Part shown: in pieces, positions 1,461 through 61,025 of the stretch | How positions within the stretch are numbered: position 1 is the first letter of the stretch | Layout of the letters: every line of letters starts with the position of its first letter | Source: Heterodontus francisci | Lineage: Eukaryota | Assembly (NCBI RefSeq): GCF_036365525.1 | Contig: NC_090382.1 | Location: 111,820,372-111,884,371, forward strand | Direction: 5' to 3' | Length of the DNA: 64,000 bases | The notes under the pieces: model-generated | Database searches by the model: none | Told to the model about the DNA's origin: nothing | What the model saw: only the letters and a program-made list of their open reading frames with translations | Position numbers and translations under genes: made by a program

Positions 1461-1461
1461 C

Positions 1462-4410: not shown

Positions 4411-4419
4411 TGATCAATT

Positions 4420-10649: not shown

Positions 10650-10696
10650 GTGAGTGGTCCGTTGTTAACACTTTAAACTTCACTTAGCATTTTTAG

Positions 10697-17229: not shown

Positions 17230-17247
17230 TTTGTTCTAGGTCTGACT

Positions 17248-21320: not shown

Positions 21321-22164
21321 TATGACTCGAACCATTGGAGAGTTTTCCCCTTGATTCCCATTGATTTCATTTAGGCTCGGGCTCCTTGATGCTGCACTCG
21401 GACAAATGCTAATTTGCTATCCAGAGCCTCACTCTCACCTCACCTCTTGACTTCAGCTCTTTTATCCGTGTTTGAACCAAGGCTGTTATGAGGTCAGGAG
21501 CCGAATGTTCCTGGCAAAACATTCGTCCCAGACAAGTGTCAGGTAACGACCATGTCCAACAGGAGAGCATCTAACCAAGATTCAATCCAAGTGGTGTAGC
21601 TAGATCCATATGCTGTTGGCAAAGGAGATGTAGTTTTTTTGATCCAGTGACAGAGAAGAAATGGCGATATAGTTCCAAATCAAGTGGATTAGAGGGGAAC
21701 GTACAGGTGGTGGCATTCCCATGCCTCTACTGCCTTTGTCCTTCTAAGGTCACGGCTTAGAAGGTGCTGTCAAAAGAGGCTTGGCAAGTTTCTGCAATGC
21801 ATCTTGTAGATGGTACAGACTGCTGCCACTTTGCACCAATGGTGGAGGGAAGTGATGCTTAAGATTGTGGATGGGGTGCTGGTCAAGCAAGCTGCATTCT
21901 CCTGGACGGTGGCGAGCCTCTTGAAAATTCTGGGAACTGCACTCATTCACGCAAGTGGAAAGTATTCCATGACACTCCTGACGTGTGCCTTGTAGATGGT
22001 TGACAATCCCTGGGGAGGGGTGGGGTGGCTGGAATTGAATTGATCACCACAGAATATTCAGCCTCTGACCTATTCCTGCAGCCACAGTATTTATATGGCT
22101 GGTCCTGTTGAGTGTCTGGTCAATGGTAACCCCCAGGATATTGATGAGGAACGAAGATTGATCA

Positions 22165-23800: not shown

Positions 23801-25390
23801 CACATTAGAACGATCCCAGGATGGAAACAAAAACGTCCAAGGAAAATTAGCCTGCAAAGGCAGACTGGATGACGAAATAGGGATAATCCAGCAGATATCA
23901 ATCACTTTGGAAAGTAATGGCGAAAATAAAGACTACTGTATCACACAGAGGCTCGCGGTGAAATGGCATTCAAACCAGTGGAAAACGATTTTCTGCCGAA
24001 AGCAACATTGCTGTACAGCTGGAAAAACAGCAGTACACTGGAATCCAGTTCAGCATCCAATGTAATTCTTGAAGAGATGAAATAATAAAGCAGCTGTATG
24101 GCAATTGAAGATTACGGTGAAGACTAATGCAGGCCAGATGGCGGAATAGTTCAGAAAAACAATGGAAGCAGAGTCGTGGTTCTCCACGTCAGGACAGGAA
24201 AAATACCTAACAGAACCCGGCTGAGCATTGCGCTATTCGGAGGAGGGCGTCTAAGTAGTGGAGACGAGCCTGGATTGGGGCAAGTGGCAATGGATTGCCT
24301 TGAATGAAATTGCGAAGGAGAACTCAGTTGGAAGTTGTCCAGGAACGGACTCCAGAGATGGCCCAAGTTGTGTTCCATGACAATGTAGTTATTTTGCTGT
24401 GCTACCTCAGTGTGGTTGTCATCCATATAGTTTCACTCCGCCAAGTTGCAGTTAAAGTTATTATTTCACAGCCGCTTTGAATTCGCTCACTGATCAAACG
24501 CATTTCAGATAAGCACCTGCATCTGGAAAGATATTCAATTCCCGGACTGTGCATTGAATTGAATTGAATATTCTTGGACGTCGCATATGAACAGTTACCT
24601 CCCGTTTCCTTTGTTGTAGACCAATAAATAGCATCCGATGGCTTGGTTGGTGAAAGCGACATGTTCAATCCGAAACAGCCGAAAAGACGGTCAATCCGGA
24701 ATGTTAATGAATCTGTAAGTAATAATTGTTATTGATGATTCTACTTTCAGAACTTTTATTACATATTTGAGCATTCGCCAGAATCAACGCTGGATATTAT
24801 GCACCGTGCATATTTCTAGGTTGTGGATTAATGGAAATGCAGATTTCAATTGACAATGAATAGAACAGAAGCCTGTGAAAACTTGTAATATATATACATA
24901 ACGAACTGCTCTTACGAAATTCACCATCTTAATGATTTGTTTGTAATAGAAATACATTGCGCATCGTTTTCCATTAAGATTACTAGTTCTTGGGATTTGG
25001 ACATCGCAAGATTCGTAGCTCTGGTAAGGTGGTGGTGAACCTTCTACTTCAAATTCGGCAGTTCCCGTTGACGTCGCGCTTTTATTGGAAGGACTAAAAA
25101 AGGAATTCGTAATTTATATATAAAAGATATATAAGTTCTGTAATTATAGCACATCAGTCCATGCCATTTTATTTAAACCTGGTAAGGGAGGAGGAACCTT
25201 ACACATTATCTCACTAAAATATGAAACAAGGGTTAAGCAATTTGCTAAAGCAACTCGGATAATTTCAGTCGTCTAGAATAGTTCGTTCAGTCAGCTTGTT
25301 CTCGTTGCGATTTGATGAAGAAATAAGTACATTAGACAAAAAAAGTACGGAGTTTGGACAAACGTAGAATAATATAATTAGATGCACGTT

Positions 25391-29615: not shown

Positions 29616-29747
29616 AATTGAATAATAGAGCAAAGCAGGTAAGAAATATAAACCAGCAAAGTCAATTAAAGTTGCACAACATTAAATGCACAAAGCAATT
29701 CTTCCGGTGTTCAGTGGAGGCACTATTGCTTTAAGATAATGTGCTGT

Positions 29748-29795
29748 TATTATTGGCCGAGTCTCTTTGTGTCGCTGTCTACCAATGAGGTGAAG
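29748..29795 (+). promoter_or_regulatory. Pcdh CSE/CGCT box, promoter 2
   Basis: Same 48-mer as 7840-7887. CGCT at 29773, 325 bp before the ATG. Confidence 0.85.
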
Positions 29796-30097
29796 AAATG
29801 TGTCTGGAGATCCAGCACCACTCCTCCTTCATCAAGCACTACGCGCTGTAGAATGAACGAACAGCATTCACCGTTCCACGCTCTTAATTCACATCGAAGA
29901 AAGGGACGGAAAAATCTGAGGGCATTTGTAAAATCATCTGGGCGATCGTAACTAAAACGTCTACGCGCTATACATAAAAAGCAACATTTCCTTTGGATAA
30001 GCAAGGTAATGAACAAATGCATTATCGGTCTAACAACAAGGCACGTATAAATTCATCTGAGAATCTGGCAATTATATTCGCAGTACTTTGATCCAGA

Positions 30098-32557
30098 ATG
30101 GCCTACTGGATGAATAGCCATTTGTCCCTATGGCCTGTTTTTTATCTGATACTCATGTATGTTTCGGATTCAGCCTGTGTAAAAATTCGCTACTCAATTC
30201 CGGAAGAATTAGATCTTGGCGCCTTTGTTGGAAATATCGCTGCGGACCTGGGATTAGATGTAAAGCAGTTATTGGAGCGCCGATTTCGGATTGCATCTGA
30301 AGACAAAAAACAATATCTAGACGTGAATTTAAAAACTGGAGCTCTCGTTATAAAAGAAAAATTAGACAGAGAGCAGCTTTGCGAACACCGCCTGTCGTGC
30401 ATATTGATATTAGAGGCTGTGATTGAGAACCCGCTAAAGTTATATCGTGTGGAAATTGAGATTCTCGACGTAAATGACAACGCGCCCGTGTTCCAGAGAA
30501 GTGAGGTAAACATTGAAATCTCAGAATTCATGCCAGCAGGAACGAGCTTCCTGCTCCAGAGCGCGATTGACCCGGATGCTGGAACCGACGGTGTTCGCTC
30601 TTACCAACTGAGCCCAAACGGGTATTTCACTTTGAAATCACAGTCAGACAGCGAACAAAATGGCATCCCAGAACTCGTGCTGGAACGACTCCTCGACCGA
30701 GAGCAACAACCAACTCATCGGTTAACACTAACGGCGTTTGACGGAGGAACTCCACAGAAATTCGGGTCAACCCAGATTAATATTAATGTACTTGATGCGA
30801 ACGATAACGCCCCAGTTTGCGAACAAAATGTCTATCAAATCACCACGGCCGAAAACGTGCGCAAAAATACTTTGATTGTGAAAGTAACTGCGGTTGATCT
30901 AGACGCAGGCCTAAACGGTGAGATAATCTATTCTTTTACCGATCACACTCCTGATAGAGTTCGGGATCTATTCAGCCTCGATTCAGCCAACGGAGAAATC
31001 AGAGTAATTGGTACCGTAGACTTTGAAGAAACAGTGAATTATCAGATTATGGTACAAGCCAAGGACAGAGGCTCGCTTCCACTGCTAGGATACTGTAAAG
31101 TTTTGATAAAGGTCACTGATGTTAATGATAATTCTCCTGAAATAATAACGACTTCTGCGTCGAATTTCATTCAAGAGAATGCTGCTCTAAACACTGCAGT
31201 AGCTGTTTTAAGAGTTGCAGACCGAGATTCTGAAAATACAGCGGCTGTTTATTGCCGAATCAACGGGGGTATTCCTTTTAAGCTTAATAGCTCCTTTAAT
31301 AACTACTATACGTTAGTCACTCATGGTGATATAGATCGTGAAAAAGTGCCAGAATACAACGTTACCATTACATGTACGGATAGTGGCTCTCCTCCCCTCT
31401 CGACCAACAAAACCATCCGAGTTCAAGTCACAGATACAAACGACAACGCGCCACGCTTTACGCAGCCTTCGTTCACCATGTATGTGACAGAAAATAATAT
31501 CATTGGTGCTTCAATTGGTTCTGTGTCAGCTTTTGATCCAGATTCTAATCAAAATTCTCAAATACGTTTTGATATTTTGAGTCGCCTGATACACGGGTTG
31601 CCCGCGTCCACATTCGTCTCAATAAACTCAGCCAATGGTGTGATGTTTGCTCACCAGTCTTTTGATTTTGAGCAACTTAAAAATTTTCAAATCTGTGTGC
31701 AAGTGAAGGATGCTGGATCCCCTCCGCTCAGCAGTAACGTAACGGTAAATGTCATCATCACAGATCAGAATGACAATGCCCCTGTGATCCTGTCACCTTT
31801 GCCAAGTGAAGGGTCTGCAGCAGAGGACACGATGCCTAAAACTGCCGATTCGGGTTACTTGGTTGCAAAAGTGACAGCCACTGATGCCGATTCTGGGCAG
31901 AACGCTCAAATTGTCTATCAGCTTCTTCAGCCCACTGATGAAAGTCTGTTTACGGTGGCTGCAGAAACAGGAGAAATCTGGAGTATTCGCCGCTTTGGGC
32001 ATAAAGATTCCCTCAGACAGAAAATCGTCATTTTGGTGAGGGACAATGGAATTCCGTCCCTTTCATCTACTGTCACCATCAATGTATCAGTGCAGGATGA
32101 TACTACAGAAAACCCATCTAATATTGGCATGTTAGGGACCTCTGGGCCATGGACATCTGATTTTAAATTTTATTTAATGATTTCTTTTGGCACAATTTCG
32201 CTGCTATTGCTTGCGGCGATTGTAATCCTCGGTATTAAGGTGCAAAGAGGTCGAACGGAAACTAGTAGTGACTGTTGCTGTTGGCACACGTCATACATTT
32301 CCAGCAGGGATTCGCTACGTGGAATTCAAAAGGCAAGTGTGAAAATTCAAATGCCACCCAATTACACTGAAAGTGGGACGTTCCCGCAACCATTTCGCTA
32401 TGATGTGCGTCAAGATTCAGACATGGACGATTTCATGTTTCTAAAGTTAGATGGTGTGACAGCGCCCATAATTGATATCAAAACTGGCATATGTACTGCT
32501 GCAGAACATGGAAAGGTATCACAGTCTACAAGCAAGGAAACCACTGAATTTCGCAAG
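30098..32557 (+). CDS. Clustered protocadherin variable exon 2 (near-identical paralog of exon 1)
   Basis: Same architecture and length as exon 1. Donor AAG|GTGAGT at 32557/32558. The unspliced ORF stops at 32584. Confidence 0.95.
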
Positions 32558-32604
32558 GTGAGTGGTCCGTTGTTAACACTTTAAACTTCACTTAGCATTT
32601 TTAG

Positions 32605-32975
32605 AAGGTATTATTTTACTCTGGACTAGTCATCCGGGGGCCTGGACTAATAATCGAGAGAACGTGTGTCGCGGCCCGTAATAGCAGTTGAAGAAGTTGT
32701 TTTGACTTAAAATAAATCCGGAAATTAAAACAAAAATCTACTTTCGATAAACGTTACCACAAAGTTGTCGGAATCTGGGTAAAAAATGTCAGTTGGTTGT
32801 CAACCTCACTACGAACATACGAATTAGGAGCAGAAGTAGGCCACTAATATTATTCCGAGGAGAAAATTTGCTATTCTTACCGGGTATGGCTTGCATGAGG
32901 CTCGAGTCATACAACAAGGTTGTTGACTCTGGACTGTTTCGCTGTCATGGCTCAGCAGCCACTCACTCAGGGGAT
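32605..32975 (+). mobile_element. Old tRNA-headed SINE 3' of the exon 2 donor
   Basis: Duplicate of 10697-11075. Confidence 0.6.
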
Positions 32976-34075
32976 AAGAAGAAAGAAATGGAAGAAGGCG
33001 ATTTTGCTGCTCGTGCCTACTCCACCATCCCAGTAAATTATATTGATCTGTTTTTCAACCACATTATGCCACCTTTGACCCATAACCAGAACAAACAATA
33101 ATCGAGCGACTGCATTATTGAATGTTTCAAGACTTTATATATACTCTGATGAACTTGTTAATCCAAATAAATAGCTCAGACGGAAGATAAAGCTAAATCC
33201 GATAATTATGTAGTTTCAACTTGAAGTATAATTTCAATAAAAATAGATAATACCGATTCTTGAGGGTTGATGGAACATTTTATTTTCAGAAAGTAAGTGA
33301 GGTCCTGCATTACCCTTTTAAGTCAGGAAAAGATTTTTTTTTAGCGCGGATGAGAGGATGGTTGAAATAAATATCGTGAACGGACAAAAAATGTAGATTA
33401 GTACACTAAACAAACAAAAAGCGCAAAGGTGCCTCTGAAATATATGGGACGGGTATAAAATAATAGTAAAAATGGAAGGAGTTACTGTATCTACATGGAT
33501 GTGTAAATCATGACAATGTAATTTGGGTTTTCGTGACATGAATTGGAATGCAGTTGAATGATTTTAACAGACGGTGCACCCTAGCTTTTGTCTCTCCCAC
33601 AACAGACAGCCTTGAAAGAAACTTGGCTGATTCTGGATCGTCCGGGGAAATTAAATATTCACAAATTTTAAATTGGTAAGCGTCATAGGGAAGCAAAATG
33701 GAAAAAAGAGGTGACCTTTTAACTGAATACAAACTAGCAGCAGGAGTAGGCTATTTGACCCCTCGAGTCTTCTCCACCATTCTGTATGATCATGGCTGAT
33801 CTGTTTGTGGACTCAGTTCCACTTTCCTGCCGACCCCCGATACCCTTTGCCACCCTTGATTGTCAAGAATCTGTCCACCTCTGCCTTAAAAACATTCAAT
33901 GACCCTGCCTCGGCCACTCTCCAGGAAAGATAGTTCCACAGACTCACGAACTTCTGATAGAAAAAAATTCTCCTCATCTCTGTCTAAGGGAGACCCCTTA
34001 TTTTAAACTGTGCCCCCTAGTTTTATCTCTCCACAAGAGATAGCCTTGATCGTCACATGGCTGCTTCTGGATAGT

Positions 34076-35538
34076 ATCAGGTCCCGGCGACTGGAGAATT
34101 GCTAATGTTGTCCCCTTGTTTAGGAAGGGGAGCAGGGATAATCCAGGTAATTATAGACCAGTGAGCCTGACGTCAGTGGTAGGGAAGCTGCTGGAGAAGA
34201 TACTGAGGGATAGGATCTATTCCCATTTGGAAGACAATAGGCTTATCAGTGATAGGCAACATGGTTTTGTGCAGGGAAGGTCATGTCTTACCAACTTAAT
34301 AGAATTCTTTGAGGAAGTGTCAAAGTTGATTGATGAGGGAAGGGCTGTAGATGTCATATACATGGACTTCAGTAAGGCATTCGATAACGTTCCCCATGGT
34401 AGGCTGATGGAGAAAGTGAAGGCGCATGGGGTCCAAGGTGTACTAGCTAGATGGATAAAGAACTGGCTGGGCAACAGGAGACAGAGAGTAGCAGTGGAAG
34501 GGAGTTTCTCAAAATGGAGACGTGTAACCAGTGGTGTTCCACAGGGATCCGTGCTGGGACCACTGTTGTTTGTGATATACATAAATGATTTGGAGGAAAG
34601 TATAGGTGGTCTGATTAGCAAGTTTGCAGACGACACTAAGATTGGTGGAGTAGCAGATAGTGAAGGGGACTGTCAGAGAATACAGCAGAATATAGATAGA
34701 TTGGAGAGTTGGGCAGAGAAATGGCAGATGGAGTTCAATCAGGGCAAATGCGAGGTGATGCGTTTTGGAAGATCCAATTCAAGAGTGAACTATACAGTAA
34801 ATGGAAAAGTCCTGGGGAAAGTTGATGGACAGTGAGATTTGGGTGTTCAGGTCCATTGTTCCCTGAAGGTGGCAACGCAGGTCAATAGAGTGGTCAAGAA
34901 GGCATACGGCATGCTTTCCTTCATCGGACGGGGTATTGAGTACAAGAGTTGGCAGGTCATGTTACAGTTGTATAGGACTTTGGTTCGGCCACATTTGGAA
35001 TACTGCGTGCAGTTCTGGTCGCCACATTACCAAAAGGATGTGGATGCTTTGGAGAGGGTGCAGAGGAGGTTCACCAGGATGTTGCCTGGTATGGAGGGCG
35101 CTAGCTATGAAGAGAGGTTGAGTAGATTAGGATTATTTTCATTAGAAAGACGGAGGTTGAGGGGGGACATGATTGAGTTGTACAAAATCATGAGAGGTAT
35201 AGACAGGGTGGATAGCAAGAAGCTTTTTCCCAGAGTGGGGGATTCAATTACCAGGGGACACGAGTTCAAAGTGAAAGGGGAAACGTTTAGGGGGGATATG
35301 CGTGGAAAGTTCTTTACGCAGAGGGTGGTGGGTGCCTGGATTGCGTTGCCAGCGGAGGTAGTAGACGCGGGCACGATAGCGTCTTTTAAGATGTATCTAG
35401 ACAGATACATGAATGGGCAGGAAGTAAAGAGATACAGACCCTTAGAAAATAGGCGACAGGTTTAGATAGAGGATCTGGATCGGCGTAGGCTTGGAGGGCC
35501 GAAGGGCCTGTTCCTGTGCTGTAATTTTCTTTGTTCTT
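34076..35538 (+). mobile_element. 5'-truncated CR1 LINE, specific to the intron after exon 2
   Basis: ORFs 34116-34835 and 34839-35465 are in frame and separated by one stop. They carry NYRPVSLTS, YMDFSKAFD and KFADD. Tail gggccgaagggcctgttcctgtgctgta. Empty site at ~12170. Confidence 0.9.
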
Positions 35539-35839
35539 ACATGGAAATCAAATATTCACAGATATAAAATTGGGAAGGTTCATATGGAAGCAAAATGGAA
35601 ATAGAGGTGACCTTATTAACCGAATGCATTATTCCAGAAGAAGCAAGAATAATTTCTCTGAAGGAAGCTTTTGTTTACAAGGGTCCTCTGGGCCGAGTTC
35701 AGCATCAGCAAATTGAAAGAAATTGAATTACACAAAGCGTGCGATGTCATGGGGATATAACCGATCTGGATAAGTCAATACATTGGCTGATTTCATCATA
35801 GAACACAAAGGTTTGGTAATGAATGGCCTCCTCTCCTTA

Positions 35840-37470
35840 GGAATTGTCATAGAATGGCTTGATTGATGCATCAGAGGTATTTTCCATTTTGTTAACTACT
35901 TTTCAGGCTGAAACAATGGGTCTACCAGGGCAGACTTTTTGTGGATTTTGGGAAGGAGGAAAAAGTGGGCTCTACAGTTTTGGGGAACTATCAGGTTAGA
36001 GATTGAAGAGCAATGATCTTCAGAGGAAATTAGGTCAATGACAGTCCAGGAAACAATGGTTTTATATTCAGAAATGGCACCATGGTTCAGGGGAAGGGAA
36101 GAAGGAAGTGTTAGAGAGTTTGCATTTGGCCTCTCCCAGGTGGAGCTTGGTATGGCAGACAACAGAGATACCACCCTTGTCAGCGCATTTGATGACGGTG
36201 TTAGCATTGGAACTGAGGGAAAGTAGTGCTGCAAATTCAGAAGCAGATAGGCTAGAGCGAGCGAAGGGAGCAGAGAAATTGAGATAGTTGATACCATGCT
36301 GTAAGTTCTCAATAAAATATCAAGGGAGAGTAAGAGGAGAGACGGAGGGTTCAGGTAAAGGGGGAATATTGGAGATGAGTTAATAGATCCACTGAGTAGG
36401 CGGTAGACTCATGGCCAATTAAGTCAAAGAAGTGGGCATGGAGGCAGCAGCAATGAAAAAAGAGCTCATGCCGAGCTTGAAATTCACTGAGGTGGGGGCG
36501 TAAGGGGGTGAAGCTGAATCCTTTGCCGAGGACAGATCGTTCAGAGTCGGCGAGGGAAATTAAAGAGAATATAGTGAATAAACAGCAAGGGGTGAAATTC
36601 GAAGAAGAGATGGGGTCAGAGGGAGGGGAAGGGGAAGAAAGATTCAGAGGAGTGTTGGTGCCCATGTGTTGCTAAAGCTTGTGATCCTTCACACCTAAAA
36701 GGAGGATAACAAATTTTTAGTTAAAGCGCCAGATGAAGTGAGGGATGAAATTAAACTGTGGGACTGGACAGTTTTGGGATAGAATGAGTCAGTGCTGCTT
36801 AAGAGAGAGGTCGAGAGCGGACATATGGCAGTGCATGGCGTTGAGAGCGCATCTTGGGATGCAACAAGAACAGCAGTTTGAGGAATTCTGAATGTCTGGA
36901 ATATATCTGTAAACGTGGCTGGATTCAAAACACAAGAGTCTTGGAATCCAGGTGGAATAAGCTGGAGCTGGAGACAGTTGCCGAGGAAGGAGATGTGGCT
37001 GTTATAGCGATTTCTGCTAGATACCTGATAAAAGACAGGAAGGGAAATGTGGCTGTGAAAACAATTTTTGGTAGATAACTGATTTTAAAAAAATAAGGGA
37101 GATATAAAGCAATGAAGGCAAAAAGGGTAGCAGAAAAACTACAATCCCATAAGAGAAAAGAGCAGAATTTCTTGAAGATAGGCACACTCCTGGAAGAGAA
37201 GTATCAGTGAATTAAGCAATAATACAAAAGCGAAATACTGTGCATGCTGGAAATCTGAAATAAAAACATAAAATGCTGGAAAGACTCAGCAGGTCAGGCA
37301 GCATCTGTGGAGAGAAAAACAGAGTAAATGTTTCAGGTTCGTGACCTTCCATCAAAACTGAGAAAAGTTAGATATCTAATATGTTTTGAGCAAGTAAAAG
37401 GGGACAGCGGGGAAGATGAACAAAAGTAAAAATCTGTAATAGGGTGGAGGGCAGGAGAGATTAAGTGACA
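35840..37470 (-). mobile_element. Decayed Penelope-like element (duplicate of 12480-14087)
   Basis: Remnants LADSERSVLGKGFSFTPLRP and RAHFFLLPKIHK. pLTR at ~37215-37470. Confidence 0.75.
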
Positions 37471-39087
37471 ACTAATTTTTTTGACTGAAATTTTATCATT
37501 CTCAAGTTGAATTATATCGTTGCTTGAAATTGGAACACTGTACTAATATTATCATTCAGTATTAACACCAATCAATACCAAAACTTGCATTTATACACAG
37601 TTTTAAAAGAAATCATGAGCTAACTGCACTTGGTGTGGGAAAGGATATAGGCAGCAGAGTTGGAGATAAGATAGAGGTCGGACTGACGGATAGGTGAATG
37701 CCAAGGAGATCGTTGCAAATAGTTCTTTCTGCACATGGCAAAGGCATGCGTGAGGTTTATATCAGCATATTGGTAATGAATGTTTAGAGGTAGGTAATGC
37801 TGCACAAATAAAACCAGATGGTCTTTATGATGTTGTAGCTGCTGCTCCAGTACAGCTACAAAACAGGCATCTACCCGACAATGTGGAAAATTGCCCAGGT
37901 GTGTCCTGTCCACAAAAGCCAGGACAAATCCAATGCAGCAAATTACTCCAGGCTGAAGCATTAGCAAAGAGATGGAAGGTGCCGTCGCCAGTGCTGCACA
38001 GCGGCACTTAGACAGTAACAACCTGCTCATTGATGTTCAGTTTGCATTCGGCCAAGACCATTCACTCCAGACATCATTATGGCTTTCTTCCCCATCCCTA
38101 ATTGCGCTTGGGAAAATGGTAGCGAATTGCTTTCTCAAACCGCTGCAACCTTGAGGCGTAGGTATACCCACAGTGCTGTTAGGAAGGGTATTCCAGGATT
38201 TTGACACAGTGACAGTGAAGGAACGGTGATACAGTTCCAAGTCGGGATGGTGTGTGGTTTGAAGGGGAACTTGTAGCTGGTGGTGTTTCCATGCTACGGC
38301 TGTGTTTGTCCTTCTATGTCGTAGAGGTCGTGGGTTTGGAAGGTGCTGTGAAAGGAGCCTTGGAGAGTTGCTGCGGTGCATCTTGTAGATAATACATACT
38401 GCTGCCACTGTGCGTTGGTGATGAAGGGAGTGAATGTTGAAGGTGGGGGAAGTGGTGCCAATCAAGCAGGCTGCTTTGGCTGGATGGTGTCGAGCTTCTT
38501 AAGTGCTGTTGAAGCTGCACCCATTCAGGCAAGTGGAGATTATTTCATCATACTCCTGACTTGTGCCTTGTAGATGGTGGACAGGATCTGGGAAGTCAGG
38601 AGGTTCGTTACTCGCTGCAGAATTCCCAGCCTCTGACCTGCTCATGTAGCCGCAGTATTTATGTGGCTGCTCCAGTTAAGTTTCTGGTCAATAGTAGCCC
38701 CCATAATGTTGATAGTGGGATATTCAGCGATGGAAACGCCATTGAATGTTCAGGGAAGATGGTTATATTCTCTCTTGTTTGAGATGGTCATTGCCTGGCA
38801 CTTGTGTGGGGTGAATGCTACTTGCCACTTATCAGCCCAAGACTGAATGTTGTCCAGTTCTTGTTGCATATGACATGGACTGCTGCAGTATCTGAGAAGT
38901 TGTGAATGTTACTGAATGTCATACATTCATCAGCAAACATACCCACTTCTGATCTTATGATGGAGGGAAGGACATTGATGGTTGGGCCTAGAACACTACG
39001 CTGAGGAACCCCTGCAGCAATATCCTAGGGCTGAGATGTTTGACCTCCAACAACCACAACCATCTTCCTTTGTTCTAGGTATGACTC

Positions 39088-40297
39088 ATTGATGATTTAG
39101 ATGAGGGAACTAAATGTAATGATTTACTTGAGGGAACTAAATGTAATATCTCCAAATTTTCAGATGACACAAAACTGGGTGGGAGGGTGAGCTGTGAGGA
39201 GGATGCAGAGAGGCTTCAAGGTGATTTGGACAAGTTGAGAGAGTGGGCTAATGCATGGCAGATGCAGTATAATGTGGATAAATGTGAGGTTATCCACTTT
39301 GGTAGCAAAAGCAGGAAGGCAGATTATTATCTGAACAGCTATAAACTGAGAGAGTGGAATATGCAGCAAGACCTGGGTGTTCTCGTACACCAGTCGCTGA
39401 AAGTAATCATGTAGGTGCAACAGGCGGTAAAAAAAAAGGTAAATGGTATGTTGGCCTTCATAGCGAGAGGATTCGAGTACAGAAGCAGTGATAAAAACAA
39501 GAAATGCTGGAATCACTCAGCAGGTCTGGCAGCATCTGTGGAAAGAGAAGCAGAGTTAACGTTTCGGGTCAGTGACCCGAAACGTTAACTCTGCTTCTCT
39601 TTCCACAGATGCTGCCAGACCTGCTGAGTGATTCCAGCATTTCTTGTTTTTGTTTCAGATCTCCAGCATCCGCAGTATTTTGCTTTTATTACAGAAGCAG
39701 GGATGTCTTGCTGCAATTATACAAACCCTCGGTGAGGCAACACCTGCAATATTGTGTGCAGTTTTGGTCTCCTTATCTGAGGAAGGATCTTCTTGCTATA
39801 GAGGGAGTGCAGTGAATGTTTCCAGACTGATTCCTGGGATGACGGGACTGAGGTATGAGGAGAGATTGAGTTGGTTAGGATTATATTCGCTGGAGTTCAG
39901 AAGAGTGAGGGGGGATCTCTTAGAAACCTATAAAATTCTAACAGGACTTGACAGGGTAGATGCAGGAAGGATGTTCCCGATGGTGGGGGAGTCCAGAACC
40001 AGGAGTCATAGTCTAAGCATACGGGGTAAACCTTTCAGGACTGAGATGAGGAGAAATTTCTTCACCCAGAGAGTGGTGAGCCAATGGAATTCGCTACTAC
40101 AGAAAGCAGTTGAGGCCAAAACATTGTATGTTTTCAAGAAGGAGTTAGATATAGCTCTTGAGTCTAAAGGGATCAAAGGATATGGGACTAAAGCGGGAAC
40201 AGGCTACTGAGTTGGATGATCAGCCATGATCATAATGAATGGCAGAGCAGGCTCGATGGGCCGATTGGCCTACTCCTGCTCCTATTTTCCACGTTTC
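39088..40297 (+). mobile_element. Unit C copy of the 1-kb CR1
   Basis: 8-bp TSD tatgactc (39080-39087, 40298-40305) and CR1 RT C-terminal frames. Confidence 0.85.
39489..39689. mobile_element. 201-bp Penelope pLTR-derived fold-back insertion containing a perfect 159-bp palindrome
   Basis: 11-bp TSD tacagaagcag (39478-39488, 39690-39700). Arms 39493-39571 and 39573-39651 are exact reverse complements. Confidence 0.9.
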
Positions 40298-41129
40298 TAT
40301 GACTCGATCCATTGATGAGTTTTCCCCTTGATTCCTATTGATTTCATTTAGGCTAGGGCTCCTTGATGTTACACTCGGACAAATGCTACCTTGATATCCA
40401 GAGCCTCACTCTCACCTCACCTCTTGACTTCAGCTCCTTTATCCATGCTTGAACCAAGGCTATTATGAGGTCAGGAGCAGAGTGGCCCTGGCGGAACTTC
40501 CGTGCCAGACAGTGTCAGGCAACGACCATGTCCAACAGGAGAGAATCTAACCAAGTTTCAGTCCAAGTGGTGTAGCTAGATCCATATGCTGTTGGCAAAG
40601 GTGATGTAGTTTTTTTGATCCAGTAACAGTGATGAAATGGTGATATAGTTCCAAATCAGGTGGATTAGAGGGGAACGTACAGGGGGTGGCATTCCCTTGC
40701 CTCTACTGCCCTTGTCCTTCTAAGTGGTAGAGGTCACGGCTTAGAAGGTGCTGTCAAAAGAGGCTTGGCAAGTTGCTGCAATGCATCTTGTAGATGGCAC
40801 AGACAGCTGCCACTTTGCCCCAGTGGTGAAGGGAATTGATGCTTAAGATTGTGGATGGGGTGCTGATCAAGCAATCTGCATTCTCCTGGACGGTGACGAG
40901 CCTCTTGAGTGTTTTGGGAACTGCACTCATTCACGCAAGTGGAAAGTATTCAGTGACGTGCCTTGTAGATGGTTGACAATCCCTCGGGAGTCTAGAATTG
41001 AATTGATCACCACAGAATATTCAGCCTGTGACCTACTTTTGTAGCCACAATATTTATATGGTTGGTCCTGTTAAGTTTCTGGTCAATGGTAACCCCCAGG
41101 ATATTGATGGGGAACGAAGATTGATCGAT

Positions 41130-42800
41130 TATAGATCGTTGTGGGTTCTGTGGAGGTCTTGGATGGGTAGAGTAGCAATTAATGGGTATACTATTGCTGC
41201 AATTGGCAAGATAGAAGTAGATGCAAGAAAAAGCAGTTGAGCTTGACAAAGAGGGACACACATGAACATGACGTGCTCAGCCGGTCCAAAAGCTGCGGAG
41301 AGGTCTGGAAGGGCATTGATAGTTGGTGCGCCATGGTCATAGTCATCGGGAATGTCTTTCGAGATTTTGATTAGAGATATTTCGATATTGCGTGAGGGAG
41401 CACAGAGAACCGCTAGACATTCATAAATCCAGGAGATAAAACTTTGACGATGAGAGTAAAATTCGAGATTGGCGGCATTTTGCAAGAACAGAAAGTTCGG
41501 AAGTTTTTTTTATAAACCGGGGGCGATTCTGTTATTTGCAAGAGGGAGAGGCACAGTGATTGTGGCCAAAAAGAATAATTCCCAATATCGGCTAACATCA
41601 GAGTCAGGAAATATTGCGGCTAGCAGGTGCGTGGGAATGGGGTCTTGGAAATTAGAGGTATGTTTCGAATTGGAAGAACGTTCTCGGGGCCTGGGTGGAA
41701 ATGAGAGAAATCTAGACAGAAGAAAGATTGATTGGGACGGGAGAGTTTTTTGTGGGTAAGCATTGATTTTATTGGCAGGAGCAGATGAGGAAGGCCGACA
41801 CAAATTATTGGATTGCCTTCACCTTGCTAAAAAAATTAAAAAGGTGCACTTTTTTGGGGGGAGATGCGAATGTGGATGTTACGGAAGGGAGGCAGAGTAG
41901 ATTCTTGAGAGTTGAGAAAAGGAGACAAGAATTACCTTCACGCTTCAAAATGATCACGGATTAATGACTTCTTTTGGCAGAGGAAATCAAGGCCTTGTCG
42001 GCCGAATATGTGTCAGACAGATCTAGTGGTGTCGAAAGTAAAACTGTGGATGGTAAATGACCCAAATAAGTTGATGGAGATGGTGTTTGCAGTGACCGTA
42101 GGACTGGTGGGGCTACGTAAGATGGTGACGTCAAGGTAGTAGTCAGTAATGTGATCAAAATAATTTATAGGGACAACATGCATGGTTTTGATAAGGGCTA
42201 TTTCGATATTGTGGAAAGGCGCATCGAGAACTGCAGAGATTCATAAATCCAGGAGATTAAACTTTGGCGTTGCGAGGAAGAGAGGGAATGCGGTGGGGAG
42301 TGCTCAGATAAAGATTTTGATTAAGTGGAAGGGGAATCACATTTTGAAGAGGTTCAGAAGATGCCAGCGAAGCGGTGGAAAAGACGTAGGTCTGATTTGA
42401 CAATCAGCGCCAACGACAGAACTCAATGAGTCATGGTGGCTGTGATGAACAAAACTCGAAGGAGGGAAGTGAAGTTAGCCCCGAGGAGGTACCCTGGAAA
42501 GGATGGTCATTGATTGTGGAAGATAGTTCGCTGTAACGGCTGCTTTTAAAGAGATCTTTAAACGTGATTTGCAGAGAATGCTGCAAAGCACAGAGAAGAT
42601 CTATCATCTCACATAGGACATCAGTCAAGCTGAGACAATGACAGGAGCGCCGCAGATTGGAACTCCCTGGAGGCGGTCTAAACAACATGTGGAACAGGAC
42701 ACAATTAGAAGAACGCAAAAAACAGAATGTCGGAGATGGGATCAGCAACAAGCGCAGATCCAGTAGTACCACATTAGAACGATCCCAGGATGGAAACAAA
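41130..42800 (-). mobile_element. L2 relic, unit C copy
   Basis: Collinear with 4420-6100. Frames read TSNFQDPIPTHLL and PDLSAAF. Confidence 0.65.
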
Positions 42801-44485
42801 AACGTCCAAGGAAAATTAGCCTGAAAAGGCAAACTAGATGACGAAATAGGGATAATCCAGCAGAAAATACAATTACTTTGGAAAGTAATGGCGAAAATAA
42901 AGATTACCCAGAAGCTAGCGGTGAAATGGCATTCAAACCAGTGGAAAACGATTTTCTGCCGAAAACAGCATTGCTGTACAGCTGAAAAAACAGCAGTACA
43001 CTGAAATTCAGTTCAGCATCCAAATGAATTCTTGAAGAGATGAAGTAATAAAGCAGATGTATGGCAATTGAAGATTACGGTGAAGACTAGTGCAGGCCAG
43101 ATGGCGGAATAGTTCAGAAAAACAATGGAAGCAGAGTCCTGGTTCGCCAAGTCAGTGCAGAGAAAATACCTAACAGAACCTGGCTGAGCATTGCGCTATT
43201 CGGAGGACGGCGTCTAAGTAGTGGAAGTGAGGAGAGGGAGAGGAGCCGGGATTGGGGCAAGTGGCAATGGATTGCCTTGAATGAATTTGCGAAGGAGAAC
43301 TCAGTTGGAAGTTGTCCAGGAACGGAATCCAGAGATGGTCCAAGTTGTATCCATTTGTGTTCCATGACAATGTAGTTATTTTGCTGTGCTACCTCAGTGT
43401 GGTTGTCATCCATATAATTTCACTCCGTCAAGTTGCAGTTAAAGTTATTATTTCACAGCCGCTTTGAATTCTCTCACTAATCAAGCGCATTTCAGATAAG
43501 CACCTGCATTTGGAAAGGTATTCAATTCCCGGACATTGCATTGAAATGAATATTGTTGGACGTCGCATATGAGCAGTTACCTCCCGTTTCCTTTGTTGTA
43601 GACCAATAAATTGCACCCGATGGCTTGGTTGGTGAAAGCGACATGTTCAATCCGAAACAGCCTAAAACACAGACAATCCGGAATGTTAACGAATCTGTAG
43701 AGAATAATTGTTATTGATGATTCGCCAGAATCAGCGCTGTATATTATGCACACTGCATGTTTCTCGGTTGTGGATTAATGGAAATGCAGACTTCAACTGA
43801 CAATGAACAGAACACAAGCCTGTGAAAACTTGTAATATATATCCATAACGAACTCGTCTTACAAAATTCACCATCTTAATTTTTTTCTGCGCATCGTTTT
43901 CCATTAGTATTATTAGTTCTTGGGATTTGGACATCGCAAGAAAGGCTACATTCGTTGCTCTGGTAAGGTGGTGGTGAACCTTCTACTTCAAATTCTGCAG
44001 TTTCCGTTGACGTTGCGCTTTTATTGGAAGGGCTAACAAAGGAATTCGTAATTTATATATAAAAGATATATAAGTTCTGTTAATTATTGCACATCAGTCC
44101 ATGCCATTTTATTTAAACCTGGCAAACCTGGTAAAGCTGTCGGTAAGGGAGGAGGATCCATACACATTATCTCCCTGAAATATGAAACAAGGGTTAAGCA
44201 ATTTGCTAAAGAAACTCGGATAGTTCAGTCGTCTAGAATAGTTTGTTCAATCAGCTTGTTCTCGTTGCGATTTGCTGAAGAAATAAGTACATTAGACAAA
44301 ACAAAAGTACGGTGTTTGGACAAATGTAGAATAATATAATTAGATTGCACGTTAATTGAATAATAGAGCAAAGCAGGTAAGAAATATAAACCAGCAAAGT
44401 CAGTTAAAGTTGCACAACGTTAAATGCACAAAGCAATTCTTCCAGTGTTCAGTAGAGGCACTATTGCTTTAAGATAATGTGCTGT

Positions 44486-44533
44486 TATTATTGGCCGAGT
44501 CTCTTTGTGTCGCTGTCTACCAATGAGGTGAAG
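44486..44533 (+). promoter_or_regulatory. Pcdh CSE/CGCT box, promoter 3
   Basis: Same 48-mer. CGCT at 44511, 326 bp before the ATG. Confidence 0.85.
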
Positions 44534-44836
44534 AAATGTGGCTGGAGATCCAGCACCACTCCTCCTTCACCAAACACTGCGCGCTGTAGAATGAACGAAC
44601 AGCATTCACCGTTTCACGCTCTTAATTCACATCGAAGAAAGGGACGGAAAAATATGAGGGCATTTGTAAAATCATCTAGGCGATCGTAACTAAAACGTCT
44701 ACGCGCTATACATAAAAAGCAACATTTCCTTTGGATAAGCAAGGTAATGAACAAATGCGTTATCGGTCTAACAACAAGGCACGTATAAATTCATTTTAAG
44801 AATCTGGCAATTATATTCGCAGTACTTTGATCCAAA

Positions 44837-47305
44837 ATGGCCTACTGGATGAATAGCCATTTGTCCCTATGGCCTGTTTTTTATCTGATACTCATGTATG
44901 TTTCGGATTCAGTCTGTGTAAAAATTCGCTACTCAATTCCGGAAGAATTAGATCTTGGCGCCTTTGTTGGAAATATCGCTGCGGACCTGGGATTAGATGC
45001 AAAGCAGTTATTGGAGCGCCGATTTCGGATTGCATCTGAAGGCAAAAAACAATATCTAGACGTGAATTTAAAAACTGGAGCTCTCGTTATAAAAGAAAAA
45101 ATAGACAGAGAGCAGCTTTGCGAACACCGCCTGTCGTGCATATTGATATTAGAGGCTGTGATTGAGAACCCGCTAAAGTTATACCGTGTAGAAATTGAGA
45201 TTCTCGACATAAATGACAACGCGCCCGTTTTCCAGAGAAGTGGGGTAAACATTGAAATCTCAGAATTGATGCCGGCAGGAACGAGCTTCCCGCTCCAGAG
45301 CGCGATTGATCCAGATGCTGGAATCAACAGTATTCGCTCCTACCAACTAAGCCCCAGCGAGCACTTCACTTTAAAATTACAGTCCATCGGTGAACAAACT
45401 GGCAGCCCAGAACTTGTTCTGCAGCGACCTCTCGATCGAGAGCAACAACCGACTCATCGATTAACACTGACGGCGTTTGATGGAGGAACTCCACGAAAAT
45501 TCGGAACTACTCAGATTAAAATTATCGTGCTTGATGTGAATGACAATGCCCCTTCTTGCGAACAGAACGTTTATCAAATCACCACTGCCGAAAACATATC
45601 CCCAAATACTTTGATCGTGAAAGTTACTGCTGTGGATATGGACGAAGGCCTAAACGGTGAGATAATCTATTCTTTCAGCGATCAGACTCCTGATAAAGTG
45701 CGTGAGGTGTTTAGCTTGAATTCAGCAAACGGAGAACTCAGAGTAACCGGAATCGTGGACTTTGAAGAAGCGAAGAATTATCAGATTTCGGTACACGCTA
45801 AGGACAGAGGTACGCGTTCACTGTCAGTATACTGTAAAGTTTTGATAAAGGTTACTGATGTTAATGATAACTGCCCTGAAATAATGATAACTACTACGTC
45901 GAGCTCTATTCCAGAGGATGCTGCTGAGAATACAGCAATAGCTCTCTTCCGAGTTGCGGACCGAGATTCTATAAAAAGGGCAAGTATCTATTGCCGAATC
46001 GTCGGAGAAATGCCGTTTCGGCTGAACAGCTCTTTTAATAACTACTACACATTAGTCACTAATGGCGAGTTAGATCGTGAAAAAGTGCCAGAATACAACG
46101 TTACCATTACATGTACGGATACTGGCTCCCCTCCCCTCACGACCAACAAAACCATTCGAGTTCAAGTATCAGATATAAATGACAACGCGCCACGCTTTAC
46201 GCAGCCTGCGTTCGCCATGTATGTGACAGAAAATAATGTTATTGGTGCTTCAATTGGTTTTGTGTCAGCCTTTGATCCAGATTCTAATCAAAATGCGCAA
46301 ATACGTTTTGATATTTTAGATAGCCTGATACACGGTTTGCCTGCGTCCACTTTCGTCTCAATAAACGCAGCCAGTGGTGCGATCTTCGCACAACGCTCGT
46401 TTGATTTTGAACAAATAAAAAACATTCAAGTCCATGTGCAAGCAAAGGATTCTGCATTCCCTCCTCTCAGCAGTAACGCAACAGTGAATGTAATCATTGT
46501 TGACCAGAATGACAATGCCCCTGTGATCGTGTCACCTTTGCCAAGCAAAGGGTCCGCCGCAGAGGACACAATGCTAAGATCTGCCGACTCAGGTTACTTG
46601 GTTGCAAAAGTGACAGCGACCGATGCCGATTCTGGATTGAACGCTCAACTTTTTTACCAACTCCGCCAGCCCACTGATGAAAGTTTGTTTACTGTGGCTC
46701 CAGAAACAGGCGAAATCTGGACTATTCGTCGCTTTGGGCATAAAGATTCACTCAGGCAAAAAATCGTAATTTTGGTGACGGACAACGGAACCCCATCCCT
46801 TACATCAACAGTCACCATCAATGTATCAGTGCAGGATGATAGCACAGAAAATGCATCAAATATCGGCATATTGGGGAACTCTGGTCCGTGGAAATACGAT
46901 TTAAAATTTTATTTAATGATGGTTTTTGGCTCAACCTCGTTCCTACTACTTGTGGCGATTTTAATCCTTGCTGTAAAGGTGCACAGGGATAGAAACGAAA
47001 TTAACAGCTACTGTTGCTGTTGGCACCCCTCTTACCTTTCGAGAAAGGATTCTTTCCATGGAATTCAAAAGGCTAGTATGAGTCTTCAAATACCGTCCAA
47101 TTACACAGAGGTGTATGAAAGCGAGAGCCTCCCGCAACCATTTGGCTATGGCATATGTCAAGCTTCTGCCATGAACGATTTTACGTTTCTAAAGTTACAA
47201 GGTGTGGCCGCGCCAAGAATTGATATTAACAAGGGCACAGGTAACCCTGCAACACATGGAAAGGCATCTAACTCTACGAACAAAGGTACAACTAATTTTC
47301 GCGAG
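44837..47305 (+). CDS. Clustered protocadherin variable exon 3
   Basis: Six EC repeats plus TM. Donor GAG|GTGAGT at 47305/47306, phase 0. The unspliced ORF stops at 47332. Confidence 0.95.
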
Positions 47306-58556: not shown

Positions 58557-61025
58557 ATGGCCTCCTTGCTAAACAGGCGAATGTGGCAATGCCACGTTCT
58601 TTATGTGATATTCATATGCGTTTCCAATTCAGTTTGTGAGAATATTCACTACACAACTCCTGAAGAATTGGAGCTTGGTGCCTTTGTTGGTAATATTGCC
58701 TCGGACCTGGGGTTAGATATTAAACAGCTCGTTGCGCGCAGGTTTCGGATTGCATCTGAGAACAAAAAGAAATATGTAGACGTGAATTTAAAGACTGGAA
58801 TTGCGTTTATAAAGGAGAAAATAGACAGAGAACAGCTTTGTGAACAAATCTTCACATGCGTATTGGTATTAGAGGCTGTGATTGAAAATCCGTTAAAGTT
58901 ATATCGTGTAGAAATTGATATTCTCGACGTAAATGACAACGCGCCCGTGTTCCAGAAAAGTGAGGTTAACATTGAAATCTCAGAACTGGTGCTAGCTGGA
59001 ACAACTTTCCCGCTTCAGAGCGCGATTGACCCGGACGCTGGAACCAACAGTGTTCGCTCCTACCAACTCAGCCCAAACGAGTATTTCACTTTAAAATCGC
59101 AGTCAGACAACGAACAAACTGGCATCCCAGAACTCGTGCTGGAACGACCCTTAGACCGAGAGCAACAATCGACTCATTTGTTAACATTGACGGCGTTTGA
59201 TGGAGGAACTCCACAAAAATTCGGAACTACTCAGATTAAAATTACTGTGCTTGATGCGAACGACAATGCCCCAGTTTGTGAACAAAACGTCTATCAAATC
59301 ACCACTGCAGAAAATGTACCCCAAAATACTTTGATTGTGAAAGTAACTGCGGTGGATGTGGACGAAGGCCTAAACGGTGAGATAATCTATTCTTTCAGCG
59401 ATCACACTCCTGATAGAGTGCGGGAAGTATTTAGCTTAGATTCGGCAAACGGAGAAATCAGGGTAACCGGTATCGTGGACTTTGAAGAAGCGGAGAATTA
59501 TCAGGTTTTGATACAAGCTAAGGACAGAGGTACCCATCCAGTACCAGTATACTGTAAAGTTTTGATAACGGTAACTGATGTCAATGATAATTATCCTCAA
59601 ATAATGACAACATCTACATCGAACACGATCCCAGAAAACGCTTCGCCGAACACTGCAGTAGCTCTTTTAAAGGTTACGGACCGGGATTCTGAAAATAGAG
59701 CAGATGTTTATTGCCGGATCACCAGAGATATACCGTTTAAGCTGAATAGATCTTTTAATAACTACTACACCTTAGTCACCCATGGTGATATAGACCGTGA
59801 AAACGTGCCGGAGTACAATATTACCATTTTTTGTACGGATACTGGTTCTCCTTCCCTGTCGACTACGAAAACCATTCGAGTTCAAGTGTCAGACATAAAC
59901 GACAACGCGCCACGCTTTACGCAACCTTCCTTCACTGTGTATGTCGCAGAAAATAATGTAATTGGTAATTCTATCGGCTCTGTGTCAGCCTTTGATCCAG
60001 ATTACAATGAAAATGCCCAAGTTTCGTATTCCATTTTGGACAATCTTATAAACGGTTTGCCTGTATCTTCATTAGTCTCAATAAACACAGCTAATGGCGT
60101 GATGTTTGCACATCGCTCGTTTGATTTTGAGCAACTAAAAACGTTTCAAGTCCATGTGCAAGTAAGGGACGCTGGATCGCCACCACTCAGCAGTAATGCA
60201 ACTATCAACGTGATCATCGTAGATCAGAATGACAATGCCCCTGTGATCCTGTCACCTTTGATAAATAAAGGTTCCGCAGCAGAGGACACAATACCAAAAT
60301 CTGCCGATTCGGGTTACTTGGTTGCAAAAGTGACAGCCACTGATGCCGATTCTGGACTGAACGCTCAACTTTCCTACCAACTTCGTCAGCCCACTGATGA
60401 CAGCTTGTTTACGGTGGCTCCAGAAACAGGAGAAATCTGGACTATTCGCCGCTTTGGGCATAAAGATTCACTCAGGCAAAAAATAGTCATTTTGGTGAGG
60501 GACAATGGAACCCCGTCCCTTTCATCAACTGTCGCCATCAATGTATCAGTGCAGGATGATACAACAGAAAACGCATCTAATATTGGCATGTTGGGGACCC
60601 CTGGATCAGGGAAATTGGATTTCAAATTTTATTTAGTGATTGCTTTTGGTATAACCTCATTCATTTTACTTGTGGCTATTGTGATCCTCAGTTTTAAGGT
60701 GCACAGAAATAGAAATGGCACTAGTAGTTACTGTTGCTGTTGGAACACGTCGTATTTTCTACGGAAGGATTCGCTCCATGGAATTCAAAAGGCTAGTGTA
60801 AATCTTCAAATACCATATAATGACACAGAGATGTATGACAGCGCGACGCTACCGCAACCATTTCTCTATGACGCGTGCCAAGATTCAGCCATGAAAGATT
60901 TCATGTTTCTAAAGTTACACGGCTTGACAAAGCCCACGATTGAGATCAAAACTGGCTTATGTGTCGCTGCTGAGCATGAAAAGGCATCAAACTGTACAAG
61001 CAGGGAAGTCACTGCATTTCAAGAG
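58557..61025 (+). CDS. Clustered protocadherin variable exon 4 (more divergent paralog)
   Basis: Six EC repeats plus TM. Donor GAG|GTAAGT at 61025/61026, phase 0. The unspliced ORF stops at 61052. Confidence 0.95.

What the first reader, a model, noticed from the sequence alone, without database searches (positions are those of the whole stretch)
44837..45400. Duplication breakpoint lies inside a Pcdh exon: chimeric EC1|EC2-6 isoforms made by unequal crossover
Seen: the upstream intron, promoter, signal peptide and EC1 of exon 3 are nearly identical to exons 1/2. From ~45180-45310 (EC1/EC2 boundary) exon 3 diverges, and its downstream intron is not a recent copy of the introns after exons 1/2. 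Inference: crossover between an upstream gene G0 and gene 3 within the exon would give G0-[5' gene3/3' G0]n-gene3, making exons 1 and 2 chimeras. Established: clustered Pcdh trans-recognition uses EC1:EC4 and EC2:EC3 contacts. Such a swap could therefore create new neuronal identity codes in one step while copying a working promoter.
Basis: partly seen in the sequence, partly recalled or inferred. Interest (0 to 1): 0.75.

Follow-up and report, generated by a model that had tools for sequence, protein, structure and literature searches.

The report
Chimeric shark protocadherins from unequal crossover
Two neighbouring shark protocadherin genes are natural hybrids, carrying the front end of the gene downstream and the back end of the gene upstream; they were most likely made by one misaligned crossover inside the coding exon, which may have given them a new neuron self-recognition code (untested).

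Summary
Confirmed, with corrections. The window holds four clustered-protocadherin variable exons (E1-E4); E1 and E2 match horn-shark proteins exactly. E1/E2 match E3 up to about codon 150 (dS 0.04-0.05) and not after it (dS 0.50). Orthologues in other sharks carry E3's front and back together, so E3 is parental and E1/E2 are the chimeras. Both switches fall in one interval, codons 150-174 (45285-45357): 18-42 residues inside EC2, not at the EC1/EC2 boundary. The introns are 92-94% alike, not nearly identical, and EC4-6 were later homogenised by conversion. So: an anti-Lepore-type tandem duplication, re-duplicated once. A new binding code is plausible (a published EC1:EC4 specificity pair is re-paired) but untested, and the literature disputes whether EC1:EC4 sets specificity. 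The mechanism is well known in other gene arrays; I found no description of fixed EC1-swapped protocadherins made this way.

The parts
8190..10649 (+). Variable exon E1, chimera (codons 1-150 E3-type, 174 onward G0-type; junction 8638-8710); GT donor at 10650
   Evidence: (identical to P0001 over 820 aa)
30098..32557 (+). Variable exon E2, chimera (junction about 30546-30618); GT donor at 32558
   Evidence: (identical to P0003 over 820 aa)
44837..47305 (+). Variable exon E3, parental gene G3 (donor of promoter, signal peptide, EC1 and start of EC2); GT donor at 47306
45285..45357 (+). Inferred crossover interval in E3 coordinates (after Ser150, before Ser174, both E3-lineage markers shared with lamniform orthologues); E3's private nucleotide differences become dense from 45310
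58557..61025 (+). Variable exon E4, older paralogue outside the recent array
1..8189 (+). Intron/spacer copy I0 (follows G0, whose exon would end about 3.1 kb before base 1 by homology with I1)
   Evidence: base 1 = 13736 in I1 = 37120 in I2
10650..30097 (+). Spacer copy I1, with three private retroelement insertions (about 15407-17229, 17441-20504, 25393-29615)
32558..44836 (+). Spacer copy I2 (original spacer type in front of G3)
44498..44531 (+). 34-nt promoter element with a CGCT box 327 nt before the ATG, identical before E1 (box at 7864), E2 (29772), E3 (44510) and E4 (58231); likely the CSE/CTCF site
   Evidence: CSE/CGCT description from PMC7811963 passages
7037..7105 (+). Intronic AG-flanked stretch used as last exon by the public gene model of G0 (P0179); places G0 upstream of E1. 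Probably an annotation pseudo-exon

Best explanation
E1 and E2 are chimeric clustered-protocadherin variable exons with a gene-3-type front (promoter, signal peptide, EC1, first 18-42 residues of EC2) and a G0-type back, most likely made by one unequal crossover between the misaligned neighbours G0 and G3 inside EC2 and then likely copied once more. Shown: the mosaic sequence, its direction, and the full duplication of the spacer. Inferred: the crossover duplicated a unit of about 13 kb [3' G0 exon - spacer - promoter - 5' G3 exon] in frame, giving G0-I0-E1-I1-E2-I2-G3. Later gene conversion likely homogenised EC4-EC6 among the copies, while the inherited front end gathered amino-acid changes. 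Predicted, by analogy with mammalian structures: in the antiparallel trans dimer the chimera pairs G3's EC1 with G0's EC4 and G3's first EC2 strands with G0's EC3, so it would bind itself and discriminate at least partly against both parents (about 55%).
For: Three-way residues where G0 and E3 differ: in codons 1-150 E1 follows E3 at 43 of 50 and E2 at 46 of 50; in codons 151-756 E1 follows G0 at 129 of 140 and E2 at 125 of 140. Trees of 52 proteins: in 1-150, E1+E2+E3 (99/94) are sister to 11 lamniform/carcharhiniform proteins (98/96); in EC2-3, EC4-6 and TM+tail E3 alone joins the same 11 (97, 98, 99) and E1+E2+G0 group (99, 100, 100). AU tests on 20 rows reject E1+E2+G0 in the 5' part (p 0.0006) and E1+E2+E3 in the 3' part (p 0.0007). 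The left end of homology (in G0) and the right end (in E3) coincide in register at codons 150-174. The 5' dS to E3 (5/103 and 4/103 sites) fits the intron age of 6-7% (P 0.42, 0.17), and similarity runs unbroken at 91-98% from 39690 to about 45340, so no separate 5' conversion is needed. ORFs and donors are intact, and in a second organism an E1/G0-type exon is spliced at 10649 to the shared constant exon (same constant peptide as P0019/P0050). At alpha7 positions 38 and 322, part of a set whose swap switches alpha7/alpha8 binding (PMC5106212 section 17), G0 has V/I, E3 A/M and the chimeras A/I.
Against: G0 is known only as a predicted protein; its DNA, promoter and exact place were not seen, and accession XP_067899235.1 between G0 and E1 was not seen. 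No clear G0 orthologue with both halves was found in other sharks (only the 5' part groups with Pristiophorus P0012, 88/91). E1 shares Val102 and Ser129 with G0 on the 'wrong' side, and the intron relationships switch along the spacer (Fisher p 2e-7), so the history holds more exchanges than one crossover. Only 4 of 17 mapped interface positions differ between G0 and E3. Nicoludis et al. (PMC5001838 section 8) argue that EC1:EC4 gives affinity rather than specificity and note that EC1/EC4-mismatched chimeras still aggregate.
Confidence: 0.85

Rival explanations
1. Whole-gene tandem duplication with breakpoints outside the exon, followed by a long gene conversion that replaced the 5' part (from G3) or the 3' part (from G0) of the new copy; same end product, two events.
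For: Conversion is active here: E1-E2 EC4-6 differ at 1 of 227 synonymous sites against about 15 expected from the introns (P 7e-6). Conversion is well documented in Pcdh clusters (passages in PMC4978886, PMC1852091).
Against: The 5' part is not measurably younger than the spacer; similarity is continuous from spacer into exon; E1-E2 dS in EC2b-EC3 (9 of about 135 sites) equals the intron value; both ends of the repeat meet in one short interval.
Confidence: 0.1
2. The chimera is real but its code was not new at birth: specificity sits in EC2:EC3, mostly G0-derived, so the new gene first behaved as a second G0 under G3's promoter and diverged (or is decaying) by later point changes.
For: PMC5001838 section 8 and bioRxiv 10.1101/493106 passages put specificity mainly in EC2/EC3; E1 differs from G0 at only 8 EC2 and 3 EC3 residues; the chimeras' 12 N:1 S changes in codons 1-150 do not exceed the neutral ratio (p 0.18), and E1's Y116S hits a position that is Tyr in 44 of 49 other proteins.
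Against: PMC5106212 section 17 reports that domain-shuffled mutants show dependence on EC1 and EC4; beta6/beta8 discriminate with five interface residues at 92% identity (PMC8901172 passage), and G0 against E1/E2 is 90.1/88.5% over EC1-4.
Confidence: 0.4
3. E3 is the chimera (an E1-type copy whose 3' part came from a downstream gene).
For: From the window alone the two directions cannot be told apart.
Against: The same 11 proteins of five other shark species group with E3's front and with E3's back in all four partitions; G0 has the different EC1.
Confidence: 0.02
4. Assembly artefact (mis-joined or falsely duplicated repeat).
For: Near-identical exon stretches are hard to assemble; no listed short-read contig bridges the junction.
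Against: The three units differ by 6-8% and carry private retroelement insertions; two separate exons have the same junction interval and have each gained private changes on both sides.
Confidence: 0.02

Closest known systems
Anti-Lepore-type hybrid genes from unequal crossover in tandem arrays (globin anti-Lepore recalled; GYP hybrids, CYP11B1/B2 and KIR hybrids seen in the search listing)
   Same: In-register crossover between misaligned paralogues; hybrid with the 5' part of the downstream gene and the 3' part of the upstream gene between two intact parents.
   Different: Here the hybrid is old (6-8% intron divergence), was copied again, and the junction splits the two halves of one antiparallel homophilic interface.
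Human PCDHA 16.8-kb (alpha8-10) and 13.6-kb (alpha7-9) deletion CNVs (PMC8653519 passages)
   Same: Copy-number change in a Pcdh cluster; the figure legend marks partly deleted exons, so breakpoints can fall within variable exons.
   Different: Deletions treated as gene loss; the words breakpoint, fusion, chimer and hybrid do not occur in that paper's main text. Here a duplication that keeps both parents and adds in-frame hybrids.
Regional gene conversion among clustered Pcdh paralogues (zebrafish, fugu, mammals; passages of PMC4978886, PMC2764143, PMC1852091; Noonan 2004 itself not held)
   Same: Domain-wise mosaic exons; the EC4-6 homogenisation between E1 and E2 is of this kind.
   Different: Conversion homogenises exon tracts; here the shared region runs through the whole spacer, and the result is a new front/back combination in extra copies. 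Elephant shark was reported to show little conversion.
Engineered domain-shuffled cPcdh chimeras (Rubinstein 2015, as summarised in PMC5106212 section 17 and bioRxiv 10.1101/493106; original not read)
   Same: EC1 and EC4 from different isoforms.
   Different: Natural and retained, with parents only 75% identical over EC1-4.

Membership tests
Clustered protocadherin variable exon | One large exon coding signal peptide, six cadherin repeats, TM and short tail | tested here: met
   820-823 codon exons with Cadherin_2, five Cadherin and Cadherin_C_2 hits
Clustered protocadherin variable exon | Tandem, same-strand array, each exon with its own promoter element (CSE with CGCT box) | tested here: met
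   Identical 34-nt element 326-327 nt before all four ATGs; CTCF binding itself not tested
Clustered protocadherin variable exon | Spliced to shared constant exons | tested here: met
   In coded run X5 (organism B, RNA by guess) an E1/G0-type contig leaves at 10649 into the constant-exon peptide shared by P0019, P0050, P0180, P0181; not shown for E1/E2 of the window's own species
Clustered protocadherin variable exon | Strictly homophilic antiparallel EC1-4 trans binding | not testable with these tools
   Gap-free alignment to mouse alpha7 EC1-4 (5dzv, E 2e-128) only
Cartilaginous-fish subcluster (epsilon, mu or nu) | Identity of the constant region | not tested
   Yu 2008 not held
Anti-Lepore-type unequal-crossover hybrid | 5' part from the downstream gene, 3' part from the upstream gene, both parents kept on the flanks | tested here: met
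   G0's place is inferred from its model tail at 7037
Anti-Lepore-type unequal-crossover hybrid | Junction in register within homologous sequence and whole spacer duplicated | tested here: met
   No indel at codons 150-174; I0, I1, I2 collinear
Anti-Lepore-type unequal-crossover hybrid | Nucleotide-level junction and equal age of both halves against the parents | tested here: inconclusive
   5' half fits the intron age; 3' half needs G0 DNA, not available
Gene-conversion mosaic (Noonan type) | Homogenised tract limited to the exon, flanks not duplicated | tested here: not met
   Not met for the E3-shared front, whose similarity continues through the whole spacer; met only for EC4-6 between E1 and E2

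The most novel reading that the evidence does not exclude
Unequal crossover inside the variable exon is a one-step generator of neuronal identity codes: because the only long homology between neighbouring Pcdh genes is the exon, new copies are born as hybrids that re-pair EC1 with a foreign EC4 (and the start of EC2 with a foreign EC3), escape redundancy with both parents at once, arrive with a working CTCF promoter, and then tune the inherited EC1 to its new partner. E1/E2 would be a preserved natural example, and many 'lineage-specific duplicates' in other vertebrate clusters would be hybrids misread as conversion.
Probability: 0.3. Interest if true: 0.68.

Novelty: new variant of a known kind. 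Interest (0 to 1): 0.47.

Why it matters
A fresh whole-gene duplicate of a clustered protocadherin adds no new recognition code until it diverges. This locus shows a route around that: the duplicate is born as a hybrid across the two halves of the homophilic interface. It gives a natural, retained set of four proteins (G0, E1, E2, G3) with which to test the published disagreement on whether EC1:EC4 sets specificity or only affinity, and it warns that whole-exon or EC1-3 trees of Pcdh clusters can mix two ancestries.

Tried and rejected
No genome is held, so the DNA 5' of the window could not be read. A search for short protein fragments bridging the junction found 6 candidates, none at E<=1e-30. 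The four stop-terminated window ORFs are not in the protein collection as exact sequences, so no E3 or E4 clusters could be listed. Sequencing runs: no RNA holder listed on record. Contigs of four runs laid on E1 (32 of 280 pieces shown) include none that bridges 8638-8710 with 31 letters on both sides; one X7 contig starts at 8633 and organism B's 5' contig carries E2's 8395A, hints that the chimera may exist in organism B, not proof. Positive selection on the chimeric front is not shown: E1-E2 13 N:1 S in codons 1-156 (Fisher p 0.32); chimeras 12:1 against E3 3:4 in codons 1-150 (p 0.03, post hoc) but not above neutral (p 0.18). GC3 shows no conversion signature (0.40-0.45 throughout). A screen of 129 within-species pairs for 5'/3' discordance found E1/E2-G0 (-25.6, -24.6 points) and E1/E2-E3 (+12.5, +16.0) as the extremes and no equally clear case in other sharks, but the set is incomplete and mostly 90%-cluster representatives. 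The careful EC2-3 tree did not finish; the quick tree is cited. No structure or complex prediction was run: a pass would come from likeness to solved Pcdh dimers. Noonan 2004 and Yu 2008 are not held. Earlier scan findings: none.

Full report
What the window is. Four same-strand ORFs of about 830 codons have the clustered-protocadherin domain set and GT donors at 10650, 32558, 47306 and 61026. I call them E1 (8190-10649), E2 (30098-32557), E3 (44837-47305) and E4 (58557-61025). E1 and E2 are identical over 820 residues to P0001 (XP_067899236.1) and P0003 (XP_067899237.1), which NCBI labels Heterodontus francisci. All four promoters have an identical 34-nt element with a CGCT box 326-327 nt before the ATG, as described for the Pcdh CSE/CTCF site (PMC7811963, passages).

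The observation. E1/E2 and E3 are 96-98% identical over codons 1-149 and 82-83% over codons 175-756; dS goes from 0.04-0.05 to 0.50. The step far exceeds 1000 permutations. The spacers before E1, E2 and E3 (I0, I1, I2) are collinear copies, whereas the spacer after E3 has only old or repeat-derived matches. The spacers are 6.2-8.0% diverged over 4575 shared columns, so 'nearly identical' holds for promoter and EC1 only. Without private insertions the unit is about 13 kb (from the offsets).

The upstream gene. E1's 90% protein cluster has 2 members; the other is P0179 (XP_067899234.1). It is 46% identical to E1 in the signal peptide and 72% in EC1, but 95-99% from mid-EC2 to the tail. Its model ends in a 22-residue tail encoded exactly at window 7037-7105 behind an AG; the copy at 24751 differs by one residue and is the tail of E1's own model. 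G0 therefore lies upstream of 7037, most simply as the exon that homology places about 3.1 kb before base 1. Its DNA and promoter could not be read. At residues where G0 and E3 differ, E1 follows E3 at 43 of 50 and E2 at 46 of 50 in codons 1-150, and they follow G0 at 129 and 125 of 140 in codons 151-756.

Which gene is the hybrid. I aligned the 4 exons with 48 named cartilaginous-fish proteins picked from the 120 hits and the cluster members; bony-vertebrate hits, long fused models, unnamed records, some redundant models and the copies of E1/E2 were left out. In residues 1-150, E1+E2+E3 (99/94) are sister to 11 proteins of Cetorhinus, Carcharodon, two Scyliorhinus species and Mustelus (98/96). 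In 163-349 (quick tree), 350-672 and 673-815, E3 alone joins the same 11 (97, 98, 99) and E1+E2+G0 group apart (99, 100, 100). AU tests on a 20-row subset reject the alternative groupings (p 0.0006 and 0.0007). So E3's combination is older than the split from those sharks and E1/E2 are the hybrids. G0's own parental status is less secure: only its front has a candidate partner (Pristiophorus P0012, 88/91).

Where the junction is. With outgroups, Ser150 is an E3-lineage marker that E1/E2 carry, and Ser174 is one that they lack: interval 45285-45357 in E3, 8638-8710 in E1. E3's private nucleotide differences become dense from 45310, after a 35-nt identity with E1, so the left part is likelier; but several E3 residues in 166-185 are shared with the P0019 group and may be a separate conversion, so I keep the wider interval. 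EC2 begins near codon 133, so the hybrid is signal peptide + EC1 + 18-42 residues of EC2 from G3, the rest from G0, with no indel.

Mechanism. The repeat's left end (inside G0) and right end (inside E3) fall in the same interval, the spacer is copied whole, similarity is unbroken at 91-98% from 39690 into the exon, and the 5' dS fits the spacer's age (P 0.42 and 0.17). One unequal crossover between the misaligned exons explains this; duplication plus long conversion needs two events. E1 and E2 share the interval, so a second duplication is inferred. Later exchange is evident: E1-E2 EC4-6 differ at 1 of 227 synonymous sites against about 15 expected (P 7e-6), EC2b-EC3 sit at the intron level (9 of about 135), the closest spacer pair changes along the spacer, and E1 has G0's Val102 and Ser129. 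The event is about one seventh as old as the G0/G3 split (0.07 against 0.50); no rate was calibrated.

Function. Shown: intact frames, donors and promoter element; in coded run X5 (organism B, RNA by guess) an E1/G0-type contig is spliced at 10649 to the constant exon also seen in P0019 and P0050. Established from papers read: trans dimers use EC1:EC4 and EC2:EC3; PMC5106212 (sections 9, 10, 17 read) reports that specificity depends on EC1 and EC4 and that swapping alpha7/alpha8 residues 36, 38, 322, 324 swaps binding, whereas PMC5001838 (sections 7, 8 read) assigns affinity, not specificity, to EC1:EC4. E1 aligns without gaps to alpha7 EC1-4. Of 17 positions mapped from these papers (gamma numbers approximate, two are alternatives for one site), G0 and E3 differ at 4; the hybrids take EC1 Ala38 and Val80 from G3 and Ser298 and Ile322 from G0 (alpha7 numbering), so the 38/322 pair is V/I in G0, A/M in E3 and A/I in E1/E2. 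Over EC1-4, G0-E1 is 90.1%, G0-E2 88.5%, E1-E2 94.6% and E1/E2-E3 81.5% identical; mouse beta6/beta8 discriminate at 92% (PMC8901172, passage). A distinct code is thus plausible but inferred (about 55%). The inherited front has changed mostly at amino-acid sites in the hybrids (12 N:1 S against 3:4 in E3, p 0.03 post hoc; not above neutral, p 0.18), which fits either tuning or relaxed constraint.

Comparison and novelty. Hybrid genes from unequal crossover are standard in tandem arrays (search listing; anti-Lepore recalled). In Pcdh clusters tandem duplication, conversion (passages of PMC4978886, PMC2764143, PMC1852091, PMC4151104, PMC3283317) and human deletions with partly deleted exons (PMC8653519 passages) are known. 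Nine library searches listed no paper that describes fixed EC1-swapped hybrids made by intra-exon duplication or an elasmobranch cluster in this detail; Noonan 2004 and Yu 2008 are not held, Wu 2005 and Rubinstein 2015 were not read, and the figure supplement of PMC5106212 that shows the shuffled mutants could not be seen, so absence from print is not established. Among 129 within-species pairs no other case was as clear, so generality is not shown.

Verdict. Observation confirmed, origin model supported (0.85), new-code claim untested. New variant of a known kind; interest 0.47.

Noticed in passing
window 25393-29615: 4.2-kb non-LTR retroelement with an intact 1063-aa endonuclease/RT ORF (26371-29562; RTE-like by recall), private to I1, inserted about 480 bp before E2's ATG and about 25 bp outside the promoter block conserved with E4; no target-site duplication found.
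   Followed up: partly
window 15407-17229 and 17441-20504: Two more insertions private to I1: a GIY-YIG element (weak Pfam hit; Penelope-like by recall) with a 9-bp target-site duplication, and an 871-aa endonuclease/RT element on the minus strand (CR1-like by recall).
   Followed up: partly
laid on window 8010-8535, run X1 record 2: A DNA contig that is not E1, E2 or E3: it keeps E1's private letters but has 8 other differences and a 3-bp deletion, 7 of them shared with organism B; a divergent second haplotype or a further array copy.
   Followed up: partly
window 7955: Organism B contigs from two studies (X5/X7 and X6) begin at the same place, 235 nt before E1's ATG and downstream of the CGCT box: a weak hint of the transcription start.
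   Followed up: no
window 8535-8537 (E1 codon 116): E1 has Tyr116Ser at a position that is Tyr in 44 of 49 other proteins, next to the residue equivalent to gammaB3 Phe86 of the EC1:EC4 interface; may weaken E1.
   Followed up: partly
window 45332-45391 (E3 codons 166-185): E3 shares Ile166, His176, Leu181 and Gly185 with the P0019 group but not with its lamniform orthologues: a possible separate conversion patch in EC2.
   Followed up: no
window 46041-46340: Patch of 90-94% identity between E3 and E1/E2 across the EC4/EC5 junction inside the otherwise 80% region; older conversion or strong constraint.
   Followed up: no
E4 codons 163-241 (about 59043-59279): E4's EC2 is 90-91% identical in protein to G0/E1 but 81% to E3, although the rest of E4 is not closer to G0.
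   Followed up: no
public models P0001, P0003, P0179: All three end in intronic pseudo-exons rather than the constant exons (P0003's even runs into E3's promoter), so the array is mis-annotated; E3 and E4 were not among the hits.
   Followed up: partly
window 39491-39690: About 200-bp insertion in I2 built as an inverted repeat of a short repeat element.
   Followed up: no
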